The position numbers were made by a program, and so were the translations under genes. From IMG/VR virus record IMGVR_UViG_2534681626_000023: DNA of 15,519 nt, one strand, 5' to 3'. Shown here one piece after another: positions 1 to 6,830 of the stretch (its first letter is position 1; the number at the start of each line of letters is the position of its first letter). The notes below the pieces were generated by a model. The model was not told the DNA's origin and did not search any database. It was given only the letters and a program-made list of their open reading frames with translations. This stretch comes from a virus (Duplodnaviria; Heunggongvirae; Uroviricota; Caudoviricetes).

Positions 1-1479
1 TCATTTTGTCGCCTCATTGCGCGGGGCAGGAATAAATTCGCCGTCATCAGTAATTTTTCCGTCCAGATATCCCGTTTTGTAATTTACGCCATAGCCATAT
101 CCCGAATGTTGTTCCTTCCAGATTAAGCGAACTTGTTTCGGATCAGCGGTGCGGTATCGCCAGAGCTGCGCGCCATCAAAGCTGTAAATGTAGCGGTTAT
201 CGCGGGCATACCATCTGCGCAAAAAGGGATGGTCATTAAGATGGGCTTCGCGTTCATCCGGAGAACGGTTATCCAGTAAGATCAGCGGTCCGTCAGATTC
301 AAACACATGTAAACCGGAATGGTATGGCCACCCTTCGGCACGCGTAAGTAAATAGCCGTGGCGTTTCCCGGCGTTGAAACGTTTGTTGATAATAAGATTG
401 GGATCATCAAGTTTCACGATTTCCAGCTTGCGGTCACCAGACTCTGTTTCGATGATGGTATAAAGCGAGTCCTGATACTGGGCGACAGCATCACTGATGG
501 GTTGAAACTGCTCCGGATCGAGTCCGGGTAATTCTTCCTGTTTACAAGCAGGTCCTTTACGCCAGAACACTTTCTTTTCCAGCAGAGAAAAATCCAGACA
601 GTGCTTTGTTAAATCTTCATCCCACGCCAGATTTTCCTTGTCGAGGACTTTACGCTGCAGCCCGTTTTTATCACGCCAGGTCAAGAGTGAGCCGGGCATC
701 CAGCGCACGACGGAAAAGGTGTCCGGGTCGGCATCAAGCTGTTCGCCGTTGATCAGGATTTTGGTCCGTGTACGAGCCAGGGTATCCCAGGGGCCAAATG
801 GCATAGCCACACAGGGATTAAACGCGGTAGAAAACTTTCCTCGCTGATCCCATGACTTTTGTGCCAGCACACGGAAACTATCGGGATCTGCGAGGCGATG
901 CCCATTGATATACAAGAAATTAGCGTCACGTAATATCAGCCCCAGTAAGTCAGGATCCCGGGGAGGCCGGAATTCCACCTGATGCAGTGTTTTGATATCT
1001 AAGCGATTTCCCCCGCCATTGTTATCTGTGCGCTTGCCTTCGAAATAGAGACTGTGTTTATCTGCGGCAAAATCACCCCACGCCTTGAACGAGGCGACAT
1101 CGACGGGAGGTTTGTCTGGCGGGGTTTGCACAACTTCACCCGCGTAGAGGATATAGCGACCATCGCTATGCAAGGAGTAATGAGGATACCAGGCCTGTGC
1201 GCCTTCATAGAGGTAGTCGGTTGTCAGATCAGTCAGAGGAGGTACTTTATCCCATTTGTCTAGTGTTGTCGGGTCTATTAATAAATTGGGTAAACGGCGC
1301 AAACTTTTGTAATTCACGTCAGGAAGAGAAAGATTTGTTTCTTTATAAGGGCGCAGGTATACCACGCCTTTTCCCTGTTTCTGGTAAATATTATGTTCAG
1401 GCGGATCAAGCCGACATCCCCATGCCGACGATAAAAACAATGAACAAGACAACAAACAAACCACATTGCGATAGTGCAT
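1..1479 (-). CDS. Host chromosomal gene, 5' part (about 492 aa in window; C-terminus runs off the window start). Predicted secreted or periplasmic protein of unknown function with an N-terminal signal peptide.
   Basis: Long minus-strand ORF open to position 1. The ORF track starts it at 1506, but 1494..1506 is Mu terminal sequence that happens to be open in frame. The first ATG on the host side is at 1479, preceded by AGGA (1490..1487) at 7-nt spacing. N-terminus MHYRNVVCLLSCSLFLSSAWGC has a basic n-region and hydrophobic core, typical of a Sec signal peptide. Family not recognised. Confidence 0.6.
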   Translation of the reverse strand: MHYRNVVCLLSCSLFLSSAWGCRLDPPEHNIYQKQGKGVVYLRPYKETNLSLPDVNYKSLRRLPNLLIDPTTLDKWDKVPPLTDLTTDYLYEGAQAWYPHYSLHSDGRYILYAGEVVQTPPDKPPVDVASFKAWGDFAADKHSLYFEGKRTDNNGGGNRLDIKTLHQVEFRPPRDPDLLGLILRDANFLYINGHRLADPDSFRVLAQKSWDQRGKFSTAFNPCVAMPFGPWDTLARTRTKILINGEQLDADPDTFSVVRWMPGSLLTWRDKNGLQRKVLDKENLAWDEDLTKHCLDFSLLEKKVFWRKGPACKQEELPGLDPEQFQPISDAVAQYQDSLYTIIETESGDRKLEIVKLDDPNLIINKRFNAGKRHGYLLTRAEGWPYHSGLHVFESDGPLILLDNRSPDEREAHLNDHPFLRRWYARDNRYIYSFDGAQLWRYRTADPKQVRLIWKEQHSGYGYGVNYKTGYLDGKITDDGEFIPAPRNEATK

Positions 1480-1493
1480 AAAGCCATCCTGGC

Positions 1494-1575
1494 TGAAGCG
1501 GCGCACGAAAAACGCGAAAGCGTTTCACGATAAATGCGAAAACTTTAGCTTTCGCGCTTCAAATGAAACAGCAGT
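1494..1575 (-). other. attR: Mu right-end attachment region (attR) with transposase MuA end-binding sites (R1-R3 type repeats); element terminus at 1494.
   Basis: Terminal TG dinucleotide at 1494-1495 followed by repeated CGAAAA / TTTCAC-containing motifs (CACGAAAAACGCGAAAG, GCGTTTCACGATAAATGCGAAAAC) resembling the MuA binding consensus. Recalled from the Mu literature, not computed. Confidence 0.75.
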
Positions 1576-1587
1576 ATTAATTACTGC
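1571..1587. terminator. Short hairpin (GCAGTA-TTAAT-TACTGC) between the mom stop and attR, with a T-run on the plus strand; possible weak terminator.
   Basis: 6-bp inverted repeat read directly. On the plus strand it is followed by TTTTTATTC, on the minus strand by TGTTTCATTT. Stem is AT-rich and short, so function is uncertain. Confidence 0.25.
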
Positions 1588-1608
1588 TTTTTATTCATTA
1601 CATGGGGA

Positions 1609-2304
1609 TCACTTAGGGTATGGCTGAACCCTGAATAGTTTGGTATTTAGCCGCTTCCTTGCTCGCTTGTTCAGGAATCTGATGTAGCGATACTGATTAA
1701 ATTTGTGCACCACGGCACGCTCTTTATTAGCCCGTAAATACACGCCTCGTTGTCCACCCCGCTTAATCGCGTTCATTGTTATCTCGTGATACCACTCACC
1801 ATCCAGCTCGTAGAACGTGCTTTCATGGCTGCCAATAAAATCAAAATTCGACGCCTGATACACAACGCCTGCGCGTCCGCAGCGTTCGTCAGCAAATGAC
1901 TGAACCCACTCCACTGACGGATACAGTAATCTGATAACTTTCAGCGCGTAGCTGATGGCCCGTGATTCAGAGTTGCGGGGCATGTCGTCGTGTAGCCACA
2001 TGCGATTCAACTCCATATAGCCCCGGTTATCCGTTTCAAGCACGACACGACGACCTGAGTTGGGGTTAAGGGCATATCCCCACTGGAGAACGCCAACCAG
2101 ATCGCGTCCGCTGAATACTCCCAGGTGGAGGTAAGAGTTATTCACAAAACGGCGGGAATAGTGCTTTGTCTGAATAATTGTGCGGGCCAGCCAGCAGGAT
2201 ATGGTTTCAACGCGCAGTTCCTTTGAACCATAGCCAACAATCTGGCCTTCATACTCAATAACGCACGGTTTCGTCAGAATGCGTGATTTTTTCTCTTTTC
2301 CCAC
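1609..2304 (-). CDS. mom: Mom DNA-modification protein (adenine methylcarbamoylation; anti-restriction), 231 aa, GTG start.
   Basis: ORF 1609..2334 translation matches the Mu Mom family as I recall it. I place the start at GTG 2304 rather than the track ATG 2334, because GGAG lies 7 nt upstream of the GUG and both sit inside a CCCAC...GUGGG hairpin (see 2300..2320), matching the known Com-dependent translational control. Overlaps com by about 50 nt. Confidence 0.88.
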
Positions 2305-2443
2305 AATGTTTCTCCGTGGGATGCTCGCAGGCATTCAGCATTATGATGTGACGTTTGCAACGCGGACACCTGATTTCAATGTGATCAAAGGAATCCGCCT
2401 TAAATAACAGTTTGTTGCAGTTTTTACAGCGAATTGATTTCAT
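2255..2443 (-). CDS. com: Com, zinc-finger translational activator of mom (62 aa).
   Basis: 62-aa [17 protein letters not shown]...[11 protein letters not shown] with two C-x2-C pairs (zinc-binding), located immediately upstream of and overlapping mom. Matches Mu Com as I recall it. Confidence 0.9.
2300..2320 (-). promoter_or_regulatory. mom translation-initiation hairpin that sequesters the SD (GGAG) and GUG start; target of Com translational activation.
   Basis: mRNA sequence CCCACGGAGAAACAUUGUGGG: CCCAC pairs with GUGGG, with GGAG and the GUG start inside the loop and 3' stem. Read directly; interpretation follows established Mu com/mom biology. Confidence 0.7.
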
Positions 2444-2555
2444 CTCACCTCCTTTGCATCAATTCGCCACTATCTTAAAAAACATCGTGGGTTGAGTGTG
2501 GTTATTGGGGCATAATCGATCTGTATTACCGATCGATTCAATTGATTCGATCGTC
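2444..2555 (-). promoter_or_regulatory. com-mom promoter and upstream control region with a cluster of three Dam GATC sites (2518..2521, 2531..2534, 2549..2552); expected OxyR and C-protein responsive region.
   Basis: Three GATC sites within 35 bp, read directly, about 75-110 bp upstream of the com ATG and overlapping the 3' end of gin. In Mu, methylation of such a triad blocks OxyR repression of mom and the late activator C binds near the promoter. Exact -35/-10 elements not assigned. Confidence 0.65.
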
Positions 2556-3119
2556 GTTTTCTATATGCGTTCGTTTGGCGGGGTGTTTTTTATACAGCGT
2601 TGACAGGGCCACATCGTAGATCAATGCGACCTGCTTGCGGGGGATTCCTTGTGCTAATAAACGCCCGGCCTGCTCCCATTCCGCTTTGGTTAGTTTAGGT
2701 GGTCGACCACCGATACGGCCTTTATTTCTGGCAGCAGCAAGTCCAGCCATCGTTCTCTCGATGATTAGTTCTCGTTCCATCTCAGCCAGGGCACCCATAA
2801 CGTGGAAGAAAAAACGCCCCATTGGAGATGACGTATCAATACTGTCAGTAAGACTGCGAAAATTAATCCCTCGCTCTCGTAATTCCCCTACGAGAGAAAT
2901 CAGATGTTTCATGCTTCGCCCGAGGCGATCCAGTTTCCAGACAACCAGCGTGTCACCTTTTTGAAGGCGCTTTAAAGCGCGTCTTAATCCCGGTCGGTCT
3001 GTCTTTGTCCCGCTTAATTTATCTTCAAATATTTGTTCACATCCTGCACAAACAAGAGCGTTTCGTTGCAAGTCTGTATTCTGGTCATTTGTTGATACCC
3101 TTACATAGCCAATCAGCAC
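2538..3119 (-). CDS. gin: Gin DNA invertase (serine recombinase of the Gin/Hin/Pin/Cin family), 193 aa, GTG start.
   Basis: Translation (V)LIGYVRVSTNDQNTDLQRNALVCAGCEQIFEDKLSG... carries the serine-recombinase catalytic motif RVSTNDQ and a C-terminal HTH region. The track starts at TTG 3137; I prefer GTG 3119, which is preceded by GGGAGA at 7-nt spacing and gives the Mu Gin N-terminus (M)LIGYVRVS. Confidence 0.9.
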   Translation of the reverse strand: MLIGYVRVSTNDQNTDLQRNALVCAGCEQIFEDKLSGTKTDRPGLRRALKRLQKGDTLVVWKLDRLGRSMKHLISLVGELRERGINFRSLTDSIDTSSPMGRFFFHVMGALAEMERELIIERTMAGLAAARNKGRIGGRPPKLTKAEWEQAGRLLAQGIPRKQVALIYDVALSTLYKKHPAKRTHIENDDRIN

Positions 3120-3173
3120 GCTGAATCTCCCGTCCAAAAGCGTAAATCATGCCATGCAGGTCAGAAACGGCCA

Positions 3174-3199
3174 TTATCTAAAACCTCGGTTTGCAGGAA
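3174..3199. repeat. gix: gix recombination site (gin-proximal), 26-bp core TTATCTAAAACCTCGGTTTGCAGGAA; inverted copy of 6309..6334.
   Basis: Read directly. It is in inverted orientation to TTCCTGTAAACCGAGGTTTTGGATAA at 6309..6334 (2 mismatches in 26) and lies within longer imperfect inverted repeats of about 92 bp (about 10 mismatches). Closely resembles Hin/Gin-family hix/gix sites. Central crossover dinucleotide at 3186-3187. Confidence 0.85.
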
Positions 3200-4270
3200 A
3201 CGGTAAATCTGGCTTCTGGCGCATTACAAAAAAACCAGAACGGCGCGGATATTCCTGATAAGGATCGCTTCCTGAGTAACATTAATGTTTACAGCAAAGG
3301 CGAGGTGGATAAGAAAAAAGGAATGCGGCAGTACGCATTTAATGCGCCGTCTAATGCAGTTGGTGGAAAGTGGTATCCAGTTATTTTCCGGCGTTCCACA
3401 GGCAGCACTGGCGAGCTGGCTTCCAGAGTGATTATAACGACCACATCTGCCACTGGTGATTACGCAATGAATAACTGCGAATTCAATGGAATGGTAATGC
3501 CTGGTGGCTGGACTGATCATGGTTCATATGCGGCAGGTTATTTTTCGACGTATCAGACTAATGAGCGCGCAATCCACTCCATTGTAACAAGCCTTAAAGA
3601 AGATGATGTATGCAGCGTTTTTTACGTTGAAGGCAGGGCTTTTCCTGTGCGGGTTTCTGCTGAAGAAGGGCTAACGGTTATTGTTCCAACTCAGGATTAT
3701 ACCGTCGGTCAAACAACATATAAGTGGGGAGCAACTAATCCCGCGACAGAAAGCACGAACGCACAAGCCATTCTGGATTTTAACAATGGGCGAGGGTTTT
3801 ATTGTTCTCACTCAATATTCGGTATTAATGCCATTTTTAGCGGAAATCTGGGGATTGGAACGGCTAATGCCCTGGGGGGAAATTCAATAGTTTTAGGAGA
3901 TAACGATACTGGGTTTAAACAAAATGGTGATGGGGTGCTGGATGCTTATGCTAATGGTGTGCATGTGTTCCGCTTTCAGAACGGTACGTTACAGAGCAAA
4001 AAAGAAATAAGTATCACTGGGCGGATATTACCGTCTGATTTCAGTAATTTAGATTCCCGATATGTAAAAGATGTTCGGCTTGGCTCACAGCAATATTATG
4101 GTGTGAACAACTGGCAAACATGGAATTTCCAGTGCCCGTCAGGTCATGTATTATCTGGTATTAATGTTCAGGATACAGGGTCCAATTCTGCCGATAATAT
4201 AGCGGGTGTTTATTACAGACCAGTTCAAAAGTATATAAATGGCACTTGGTATAATGTAGCGAGCGTTTAA
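3191..4270 (+). CDS. S: Silent alternative tail-fiber variable cassette (Sv-type), promoterless and start-less; would be fused to the constant S N-terminus after inversion (predicted fusion about 530 aa).
   Basis: ORF open from the gix site with no credible own start (the track M is a TTG inside the repeat). N-terminal residues [21 protein letters not shown] mirror the junction of the expressed fiber, and the C-terminal tip ...[12 protein letters not shown] is paralogous to the expressed tip ...CINGTWYNAGSI. Frame checked: in phase with Sc after inversion. Confidence 0.8.
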
Positions 4271-5363: not shown

Positions 5364-6830
5364 TTAAATACTCCCCGCGTTATACCACGTTCCATTAATG
5401 CAATACTGAATTGGCCTTGCCTGAGTTATATCAATTAATTCATCACGGTTTCCGTTAACTGAACCAGTAACGACATAACCTGACCTGTCAGACCAGCCAG
5501 GACCATTCCATGTCTGAACAGATGACAGACCGCCAAGGCGAATACCTGTAATAAACCTTGAGTTACATTCTGCCTGCGTATATGCACCAACATCTCCCGC
5601 AGAGGGTTTGCGTGTTGTGGTGTAAAACTCTGACCAGTTAGCTTCAAAGCCATAACCATCACGCGCTGAACGATAAAAGATACCGCCATTTCTGTAATTC
5701 ACGCGGAACTGTACAGCAGGGCAACTCCCCGCATTCATATTAAAGTGGAGGATTAATGTCGATGCGCCACTGATATCTGCATCATAAACGCCGCTATTCC
5801 AGTTCCAGCCAACAGCTTTATCATTTGCGACCCTGCGTCCTGTTTGCCCTAAAGCAAATGCAGGCTGCTGGTTTTTCGTGTTGTAGTCTCGTCGCCAGCC
5901 AGGAGCGTAAGCATCACCATGATTAATATAAGTGAATTGAGCGTTAGTGATTCCGCCACCGCTGGACGTGCTCGGCGTGGTAACGCGTATGGTCATTGCG
6001 CCGCGGGTGCCAATAACTTCCACCACAGCACCTGCAAGACAAATATTTCCGCAACCTGTATCTGTAATGACCTTATTATTTGCATAAGCCCATGAGCCTT
6101 TGCACATCCAGTAAGGATGGTTAAATGCCCCCTGACTCTCCAGCCACGAAATAAATTGCGCAGTTGTCCAGACCTGACTATCGCCACCAATATTCAGCCA
6201 TGCGCTATATGCGCGACAGGCCCCAATATTTTTGGTGAAGGTATCTTTTCCCGGAATATCTGCGCCGTTCTGTTTTTTCTGTAATGCGCCAGAAGCCTGA
6301 TTTACCGTTTCCTGTAAACCGAGGTTTTGGATAAACAGCGGCTTATTGGGAATATCTGCTCCGTTCCGGTCTTTTGCCAGACGGGCATTGGCATTATCCA
6401 TCGCAATTTTCACCGCTTTTGCGGTGGCTGCCAGCGTTTCACTGGGGCTGTCAGTGGCACTGGTTAGCTGAACGAGGCCTTTTTTGTTCAGGCTGGCATC
6501 CCAGATATCCAGATTTTCACGTGCTGTACGCTGTGCTGATGCCCCGGCAATTTTAATTTCGCTGAGGTTATTTTTTATCAGCAGCGCGTTATTGCTCATA
6601 ATGGCTTTAATGGACAGTGCAAGCTGGTTTAATTTTGTTTTATCCGGTTGAATACCGGCTTCTTCCAGCGTGTTTAATAACTCCGCCTGCACAATATTAA
6701 ACCAGTCCATACCGGGCCATGTGATAGCATTATTCCCGTCACCTTCTGAAAACCAGCGAACGATAGCACTACGCTGGGCGGATACGGGCGGCATGACGGT
6801 TACGCCGCTGTCGTTATCAATATAAAACAT
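5364..6830 (-). CDS. S': Tail fiber protein in its currently expressed form (488 aa): constant N-terminal part Sc (6322..6830, outside G) fused to the variable cassette inside G (5364..6321).
   Basis: ORF crosses the gix site at 6309..6334 (encoding [11 protein letters not shown]). Its start ATG at 6830 overlaps the stop of the upstream baseplate gene. Assignment as the S' (G-minus) form is an inference from the sizes 488 versus about 530 aa and chaperone lengths 177 versus 175 aa. Confidence 0.85.
   Translation of the reverse strand: MFYIDNDSGVTVMPPVSAQRSAIVRWFSEGDGNNAITWPGMDWFNIVQAELLNTLEEAGIQPDKTKLNQLALSIKAIMSNNALLIKNNLSEIKIAGASAQRTARENLDIWDASLNKKGLVQLTSATDSPSETLAATAKAVKIAMDNANARLAKDRNGADIPNKPLFIQNLGLQETVNQASGALQKKQNGADIPGKDTFTKNIGACRAYSAWLNIGGDSQVWTTAQFISWLESQGAFNHPYWMCKGSWAYANNKVITDTGCGNICLAGAVVEVIGTRGAMTIRVTTPSTSSGGGITNAQFTYINHGDAYAPGWRRDYNTKNQQPAFALGQTGRRVANDKAVGWNWNSGVYDADISGASTLILHFNMNAGSCPAVQFRVNYRNGGIFYRSARDGYGFEANWSEFYTTTRKPSAGDVGAYTQAECNSRFITGIRLGGLSSVQTWNGPGWSDRSGYVVTGSVNGNRDELIDITQARPIQYCINGTWYNAGSI
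6309..6334. repeat. gix: gix recombination site (tail-gene-proximal), 26-bp core TTCCTGTAAACCGAGGTTTTGGATAA, located inside the tail fiber coding sequence.
   Basis: Inverted copy of 3174..3199. Central crossover dinucleotide GA at 6321-6322. Confidence 0.85.

What the first reader, a model, noticed from the sequence alone, without database searches (positions are those of the whole stretch)
2518..2552. Three GATC sites, two within a 22-bp near-palindrome, overlapping the end of gin
The sites lie upstream of com in the region where Mu uses Dam methylation state to control mom transcription, so a toxic DNA-modification gene is coupled to host methylation. Two of the sites terminate a near-palindrome GATCGATTCAATTGATTCGATC (2531..2552) that overlaps the last codons and stop of gin. 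One sequence thus serves as coding sequence, methylation sensor and repressor site at once.
Basis: partly seen in the sequence, partly recalled or inferred. Interest (0 to 1): 0.45.

Follow-up and report, generated by a model that had tools for sequence, protein, structure and literature searches.

The report
Mu mom promoter Dam/OxyR methylation switch

Summary
GATC lies at 2518-2521, 2531-2534 and 2549-2552. The last two end a 22-bp near-palindrome (10 of 11 pairs) that spans the gin stop codon TGA at 2538-2540.

The window is the right end of a Mu-like prophage read backwards. It is 97% identical to Mu and 98.5% to SfMu, and is inserted in an E. coli DKNYY-family gene. All three GATC sites are identical in position to those of Mu, D108 and SfMu.

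They sit at -53/-56, -66/-69 and -84/-87 from the mapped mom transcription start (window 2465, minus strand). That is directly upstream of the C-activator dyad and the annotated late promoter. In Mu this is the region where Dam methylation prevents OxyR from binding and repressing mom.

As a count alone the cluster is only marginally unusual (P about 0.06). Conservation carries the argument. 48 of 49 mom loci have GATC-N14-GATC upstream of com, and 30 also have the third site at the same spacing. No GATC column varies among 13 distinct Mu-class sequences, against 30 of 99 other columns.

The overlap with gin is limited to site 1 and is specific to the Mu lineage.

Verdict: already known, low interest.

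The parts
2549..2552 (-). GATC site 1, promoter-distal, at -84..-87 from the mom start. It lies inside gin codons 189-190 (GAT CGA).
   Evidence: Invariant in 13 distinct Mu-class sequences.
2531..2534 (-). GATC site 2, at -66..-69. It lies 3 nt downstream of the gin stop in this window, but inside gin in SfMu and D108, where gin is 4 codons longer.
2518..2521 (-). GATC site 3, promoter-proximal, at -53..-56. It is 2 nt upstream of the C dyad.
   Evidence: The Mu 'late promoter' annotation starts at its last base.
2530..2553 (.). Near-palindrome CGATCGATTCAATTGATTCGATCG (11 of 12 pairs). It contains two PvuI sites 18 bp apart.
   Evidence: The 18-bp PvuI fragment of Pmom is reported in PMC3378877.
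2519..2564 (-). Two overlapping best matches to the OxyR consensus (2528-2564 and 2519-2555, each 13 of 20 specified positions). The first starts with a conserved ATAG at 2564..2561, 8 nt upstream of site 1.
   Evidence: ATAG-N8-GATC is shared with class B mom loci, L049 and E. coli flu/agn43.
2549..2572 (.). Stretch corresponding to the Fis footprint -107..-84 mapped on Mu Pmom.
   Evidence: PMC3378877, transferred by alignment. Inferred for this prophage.
2538..3119 (-). gin, a serine invertase of 193 aa with stop TGA at 2540..2538. The HTH domain ends at residue 181, so the overlap with the switch falls in a 12-residue tail outside any domain.
2502..2515 (-). C-activator recognition dyad TTAT-N6-ATAA, at -50..-37.
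   Evidence: Sequence, identical to Mu. That C binds over the mom promoter is stated in PMC4461284. The exact dyad assignment is from my own knowledge.
2465..2482 (-). Pmom core: T6 run at 2482..2477, -10 hexamer TAAGAT at 2477..2472, and the transcription start G at 2465.
   Evidence: Derived from the -58..+20 fragment, its 78-mer oligonucleotide and the tin7 change at -14 (PMC3378877 and PMC4461284).
2255..2443 (-). com, a zinc-ribbon translational activator of mom.
1609..2334 (-). mom, the DNA modification enzyme and the regulated toxic gene.

Best explanation
This is 'region I' of the Mu mom operon control region, carried by a Mu-like prophage of E. coli.

The three GATC sites are targets of the host Dam methylase and lie within a binding site for the host LysR-type regulator OxyR. 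When the sites are unmethylated, and to some extent when hemimethylated, OxyR binds across them, just upstream of the C-activator site. It then stops C-assisted recruitment of RNA polymerase to the weak mom promoter. When Dam has methylated the sites, OxyR cannot bind, and the phage late activator C can switch on com-mom.

Transcription of the cytotoxic Mom enzyme therefore needs two things: a methylated promoter and the late-phase activator.

What is shown here: the identity and position of the sequence relative to the mapped Mu promoter, and its strong conservation. What is inferred from published work on Mu: OxyR binding and its sensitivity to methylation.

The overlap with the 3' end of gin concerns site 1 and the upstream part of the OxyR and Fis footprints. 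It falls in a tail of Gin outside any domain, and it is a consequence of tight gene packing in the Mu lineage rather than a requirement of the switch.
For: Identity of the locus. The window is 97% identical to Mu and 98.5% to SfMu over gin-com-mom and the right end. Gin, Com and Mom match Pfam Resolvase/HTH_7, Zn_ribbon_Com and Mom. In the alignment the three GATC sites, the C dyad, the T6 run, the -10 hexamer and the com start are identical to Mu.

Position relative to the promoter. The Mu record's late promoter maps to window 2518..2452. The +1 position comes from three consistent published facts: the -58..+20 fragment, its 78-mer sequence, and tin7 at -14. It places the sites at -53 to -87. 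The 18-bp PvuI fragment reported for Pmom equals the spacing of the two CGATCG sites here.

Literature. Dam and OxyR govern Pmom (PMC3378877). Methylation of three GATC sites in a 43-bp region prevents OxyR binding (PMC7549136). OxyR represses the mom promoter (PMC4207228).

Conservation. 48 of 49 mom loci have GATC-N14-GATC upstream of com, and 30 have all three sites at the 18/13 spacing. These include L006, L048 and L049, whose intervening sequence is largely different. Among 13 distinct Mu-class sequences, 0 of 12 GATC columns vary against 30 of 99 others.

Relic. In L005, where com is truncated after about 8 codons and no mom follows, all three GATC sites have been lost while the promoter remains.

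OxyR consensus. Two of the three top-scoring places in the whole window fall on this region. The proven OxyR/Dam target agn43/flu has nearly the same layout: ATAG-N8-GATC, then spacings of 19 and 13.
Against: No experiment on this prophage exists, so OxyR binding and methylation sensitivity are transferred from Mu.

The match to the OxyR consensus is weak in absolute terms (13 of 20), and an equal score occurs once elsewhere in the window.

The GATC clustering alone is not statistically compelling (P 0.06-0.16).

The primary footprinting papers (Bolker and Kahmann 1989; Sun and Hattman 1996; Hattman and Sun 1997) are not in the held library. The footprint limits I quote (-104 to -46) therefore come from my own recollection.

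The C gene lies outside the window, so I cannot tell whether this prophage still encodes its activator.
Confidence: 0.93

Rival explanations
1. The cluster and palindrome are a chance feature of the gin 3' end and intergenic DNA, with no function of their own.
For: Three of 33 randomly placed GATC sites fall within 35 bp in 5.6% of trials, and in 16% of Markov simulations.
Against: The sites are invariant across 13 distinct Mu-class sequences, while 30 of 99 neighbouring columns vary. The same 18/13 spacing is kept in diverged loci whose intervening sequence differs. The sites are lost together in a relic without mom. They are identical to the experimentally characterised Mu region.
Confidence: 0.01
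2. The palindrome acts as an RNA hairpin that terminates or stabilises the gin transcript. This would insulate mom from read-through, and the GATC content would be incidental.
For: The RNA can form a 7+2 bp hairpin across 2530-2553.
Against: No terminator-like site was found in 2300-2750 on either strand, and no U-run follows the stem. The fold is not better than shuffles (z = -1.35; 17 of 200 shuffles fold at least as well). In Mu the palindrome is weaker (9 of 11 pairs), and in SfMu and D108 the stop codon moves. In L006 and L048 the two arms are not complementary, yet the GATC sites stay.
Confidence: 0.03
3. The primary reader of the clustered GATC sites is some other host protein, for example SeqA on hemimethylated DNA after replication, or Fis. 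OxyR would be secondary.
For: Fis protects -107..-84 of Mu Pmom, which overlaps site 1 (PMC3378877). Closely spaced GATC sites are the kind of target SeqA binds (my own knowledge).
Against: The held literature names Dam and OxyR as the factors governing Pmom transcription, and describes Fis as an additional silencer rather than the primary regulator. The layout copies the OxyR/Dam site of agn43, including the ATAG element. No evidence for SeqA at mom was found.
Confidence: 0.03

Closest known systems
Bacteriophage Mu mom operon regulatory region I (Dam/OxyR control of Pmom)
   Same: The order gin-com-mom is the same. The three GATC sites are at the same positions. The C dyad, T6 run, -10 hexamer and com start are identical. 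Only 2 substitutions separate the window from Mu between -104 and +1.
   Different: The gin stop is TGA instead of TAA. This single A-to-G change raises the palindrome from 9 to 10 of 11 pairs. There is also a C/T difference at -22. The prophage sits at a different chromosomal site and carries a different G-segment tail-fibre set.
E. coli agn43 (flu) Dam/OxyR phase-variation switch
   Same: It has three GATC sites within an OxyR site. ATAG lies 8 nt upstream of the first GATC, and 13 nt separate the second and third sites. Methylation blocks OxyR repression.
   Different: The first spacing is 19 nt rather than 18. In K-12, GATC-I coincides with the 5' end of the annotated isrC RNA. From my own knowledge, the agn43 sites sit at and just downstream of the transcription start, so OxyR blocks the polymerase directly and the state is heritable as ON/OFF phases. 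Here the sites are at -53 to -87 and act together with a phage activator.
Salmonella/P22 gtr operon Dam/OxyR switch
   Same: Pairs of GATC sites lie inside OxyR half-sites upstream of a phage-borne modification operon, and methylation abrogates OxyR binding (PMC2909390).
   Different: gtr has four GATC sites in two pairs, with three half-sites and alternative OxyR positions that give activation or repression. No such second arrangement is visible here.

Membership tests
Mu mom Dam/OxyR control region (region I) | Lies immediately upstream of the C-activator site and weak Pmom of a com-mom operon. | tested here: met
   The sites are at -53..-87. The C dyad is at 2515..2502. com and mom lie downstream.
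Mu mom Dam/OxyR control region (region I) | Three Dam (GATC) sites within about 43 bp. | tested here: met
   Three sites within 35 bp at 2518-2552. The published description is in PMC7549136.
Mu mom Dam/OxyR control region (region I) | Sequence homology to the mapped Mu region. | tested here: met
   97% identity overall, with only 2 differences between -104 and +1.
Mu mom Dam/OxyR control region (region I) | Resemblance to the OxyR consensus ATAGnTnnnAnCTAT-N7-ATAGnTnnnAnCTAT. | tested here: inconclusive
   The score is 13 of 20, the top score in the window, and two of the three top places are here. The match is weak in absolute terms.
Mu mom Dam/OxyR control region (region I) | OxyR binds unmethylated DNA but not fully methylated DNA, and mom transcription is Dam-dependent. 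| not testable with these tools
   Needs footprinting or reporter assays. Transferred from work on Mu.
Mu mom Dam/OxyR control region (region I) | The host supplies Dam and OxyR, and the phage supplies activator C. | not tested
   The flank is E. coli DNA at 99.9% identity, so Dam and OxyR are expected. The C gene lies outside the window.
agn43-type heritable phase-variation switch | The OxyR/GATC site overlaps the transcription start, so that bound OxyR both blocks the polymerase and protects the GATC sites, giving heritable ON/OFF states. | tested here: not met
   The sites here are 53-87 bp upstream of +1, and the promoter needs a phage activator. It works like agn43 as a sensor but is not a member.
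Intrinsic transcription terminator | A G+C-rich hairpin followed by a U-run. | tested here: not met
   No terminator-like site in 2300-2750. Hairpin z-score is -1.35.

The most novel reading that the evidence does not exclude
The most novel reading not excluded is that the core of the sensor is a portable cassette. Its form is ATAG-N8-GATCGA-N10-TCGATCG, with an optional third GATC 13 nt further on. It would travel with com-type zinc-ribbon genes, independently of gin and even of mom.

Supporting observations: it occurs upstream of com-mom operons that lack gin. It occurs in a large class of mom loci that carry only two GATC sites, with CATC in the third place. In one viral contig (L093) it precedes a com-like gene followed by an N6/N4 DNA methyltransferase instead of Mom.

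If all of these are OxyR/Dam-controlled, two points would follow that have not, to my knowledge, been stated systematically. The two-site dyad would be the functional unit rather than the classical three sites. Coupling to host methylation would be a general rule for phage DNA-modification genes guarded by Com.
Probability: 0.4. Interest if true: 0.3.

Novelty: already known. Interest (0 to 1): 0.1.

Why it matters
The element is a textbook case of a phage using the host's DNA methylation state, read by a host regulator, to time a lethal DNA-modification enzyme. Finding it intact in a prophage only shows that this copy probably keeps normal mom control.

The comparative survey adds a small point. 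The GATC pair with 18-bp spacing is the most conserved part across diverged mom loci, and the overlap with gin is incidental.

Tried and rejected
Literature. I tried to read the primary papers: Bolker and Kahmann 1989 (PMC401183), Sun and Hattman 1996 (PMC146201, PMID 8918810) and Hattman and Sun 1997 (PMC147061, PMID 9336472). I also tried three reviews (PMC1594586, PMC4231299, PMC2755769). None is held. The supplement of PMC3378877, which has the regulatory scheme, is not held either.

Database scans. The genome-contig scan with Mom gave only 3 loci. One of them, L008, is cut before the upstream region.

Pattern scan of viral contigs. 45 stretches matched, 10 of them not already in the Mom-derived set. 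Of those 10:
- 3 (L065, L081, L083) look like chance hits in G+C-rich DNA.
- 1 (L086) is followed by an ORF that looks like an IS transposase (my reading of the ORF, not tested).
- 1 (L074) has no recognisable com in the short stretch held.

OxyR scan with 17-nt spacing. The 'reduced' spacing gave nothing notable in the region: 11 of 20, against a window maximum of 12.

Rejected readings. A sigma-70 consensus promoter scan found nothing in 2300-2750, which fits Pmom being a poor, activator-dependent promoter. The terminator reading was rejected. I also considered the palindrome as a Gin recombination site and rejected it, because the inverted repeats that bound the G segment are at 3174-3271 and 6237-6334.

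Full report
**What the window is.** The genes around the finding lie on the minus strand. They are mom (1609-2334), com (2255-2443) and gin (stop at 2538-2540; 193-aa reading from 3119). Pfam assigns them to Mom, Zn_ribbon_Com and Resolvase plus HTH_7. A megablast of 1400-3300 finds phage Mu at 97.0%, SfMu at 98.5% and D108 at 95.9% identity. The match runs to the very end of those genomes. In the window the Mu right end (...CGCCGCTTCA) stops at 1494. Bases 1-1493 are E. coli chromosome, 99.9% identical to a DKNYY-family gene region in many strains. The window is therefore the right arm of a Mu-like prophage, reversed, with its host junction. The regulatory stretch 2440-2600 is 100% identical to a prophage of E. 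coli E24377A and six other listed genomes. The E24377A copy sits in ssuA, so it is a different insertion.

**The observation.** GATC occurs at 2518, 2531 and 2549. The 22-mer at 2531-2552 is a palindrome with one mismatched pair. It is the only one of that quality in the window, against 0.17 expected per simulated sequence. It extends to two CGATCG (PvuI) sites at 2530-2535 and 2548-2553. The last gin codons are GAC GAT CGA ATC AAT TGA, so site 1 is coding, the stop lies near the centre of the palindrome, and sites 2 and 3 follow the stop. As statistics, three sites within 35 bp is only marginal: 5.6% with 33 random sites and 16% in Markov simulations. GATC is in fact depleted in the window (33 against 52.7 expected).

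**Mapping onto Mu.** In a four-way alignment with Mu, SfMu and D108 the three GATC sites are invariant. So is everything from the C dyad to the com start, apart from a few points. The Mu record annotates the late promoter at 35693-35759, which corresponds to window 2518..2452.

The transcription start can be placed from three published facts. The 78-bp Ptin7 fragment spans -58 to +20 (PMC3378877). Its oligonucleotide sequence is printed in PMC4461284. The tin7 change is at -14. All three agree on +1 being the G at window 2465, with the -10 hexamer TAAGAT at 2477-2472 and the T6 run at 2482-2477. The GATC sites are then at -53/-56, -66/-69 and -84/-87.

The same paper reports that PvuI cuts the Pmom fragment into 60, 18 and 182 bp, and that C binds only the 182-bp piece. 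The 18-bp piece is the interval between the two CGATCG sites seen here. The TTAT-N6-ATAA dyad that I take to be the C recognition element (my own knowledge) is at 2515-2502, two bases from site 3. The Fis footprint at -107..-84 corresponds to 2549-2572 and overlaps site 1 and the end of gin.

**What the literature says it does.** PMC3378877 states that an interplay between host Dam and OxyR governs transcription from Pmom. It also states that the promoter is weak, has a suboptimal spacer and a T stretch, and depends on C. [quoted passage not shown] From my own memory of Sun and Hattman 1996, which I could not check, reduced OxyR protects -104 to -46 and blocks RNA polymerase recruitment without displacing C. 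That span would be window 2569-2511, and it contains all three sites.

**Independent sequence support.** A scan with the OxyR consensus gives a maximum of 13 of 20 in the whole window, at three places. Two of these are 2528-2564 and 2519-2555. This is weak in absolute terms but correctly located.

The K-12 agn43/flu control region, a proven Dam/OxyR target (PMC7261158), reads ATAG-N8-GATC-N15-GATC-N9-GATC. The window reads ATAG-N8-GATC-N14-GATC-N9-GATC.

**Conservation.** A search of viral contigs with Mom returned 43 loci, and a search of genomes returned 3. Of 49 loci with upstream DNA, 48 have GATC-N14-GATC upstream of com and 30 also have the third site 13 nt on. The exception, L047, has spacings of 31 and 13. 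Among 13 distinct Mu-class sequences no GATC column varies, against 30 of 99 other columns. L006, L048 and L049 keep the 18/13 spacing although the bases between the sites are largely different. A large class of loci (L030-L046) keeps only sites 1 and 2, within a 28-bp near-palindrome, with CATC in the third place. In a plasmid relic (L005) com is truncated after about 8 codons and no mom follows. There all three GATC sites have mutated, to GCTC, GGTC and GATT, while the C site and promoter remain.

**The coding overlap.** In Mu and in this window gin stops between sites 1 and 2. In SfMu and D108 the stop codon is CAA and gin runs four codons further, through site 2. The Gin HTH domain ends at residue 181, so the overlap is with a short, variable tail. 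In L020, L022/L027 and the L023 group the gin sequence upstream is replaced or internally deleted, yet the module from about CATATAGAAAACGAC onward is retained. In class B, L006 and L048 the upstream gene is unrelated to gin. The overlap is therefore real but incidental to the Mu lineage. The A-to-G change that makes TGA here is what improves the palindrome from 9 to 10 pairs.

**Rivals.** A terminator reading fails. No terminator-like site was found, no U-run follows, and the hairpin is no better than shuffles (z = -1.35). Chance is excluded by conservation. Fis, and possibly SeqA, may also read this DNA, but the literature treats Fis as an added silencer.

**Verdict.** The element is the known Mu mom Dam/OxyR switch, in a prophage copy that differs from Mu at two bases between -104 and +1. 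The novelty class is 'already known' and interest is low. The only modestly new material is comparative: the conserved two-site dyad, the portability of the module, and its presence in front of a com-like gene plus an N6/N4 methyltransferase in L093.

Noticed in passing
L093:2314-3342 (minus strand): The same three-GATC module (ATAG-N8-GATC-N14-GATC-N9-GATC) precedes a Com-like zinc-ribbon gene (Pfam Zn_ribbon_Com, E 8e-12). That gene overlaps a 260-aa N6_N4 DNA methyltransferase (E 2e-33) in place of Mom.
   Followed up: partly
L030-L046 (class B mom loci), about 200 nt upstream of mom: Mom is 93-97% identical to the window's, but com and the whole upstream region are different. Only two GATC sites are present, 18 nt apart, inside a 28-bp near-palindrome GACGATCGATAACATCATATCGATCGTC. 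The third position reads CATC, and no gin lies upstream.
   Followed up: partly
L023, L025, L026, L028, between GATC sites 2 and 3: The 9 nt between sites 2 and 3 read TGTATTACC, the exact reverse complement of the GGTAATACA found in Mu and in the window. This amounts to a 17-bp inversion bounded by the two palindromic GATC sites. The same loci have an internally deleted gin.
   Followed up: no
L005:1540-1660 (E. coli plasmid NZ_CP159120): A relic of the gin-com junction. com is truncated after about 8 codons and mom is absent. All three GATC sites are mutated (GCTC, GGTC, GATT), while the C dyad region, T run and -10 hexamer are largely kept.
   Followed up: partly
window 1..1494: The Mu right end (…CGCCGCTTCA) stops at 1494. 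Bases 1-1493 are E. coli chromosome (99.9% identity) within a DKNYY-family or hypothetical gene. No complete E. coli genome in the collection carries this exact junction.
   Followed up: partly
window 3174-3271 and 6237-6334: Inverted repeats of 98 nt (88% complementary) bound an invertible G-like segment of about 3.1 kb. The match to Mu stops at window 3255, so the tail-fibre genes inside differ from Mu. Window 3227-3300 resembles P2-like (Peduovirus) tail-fibre genes.
   Followed up: partly
window, whole: GATC is under-represented overall: 33 sites against 52.7 expected from dinucleotide shuffles, and all 200 shuffles had at least 33. There are none at all between 3519 and 7986.
   Followed up: no
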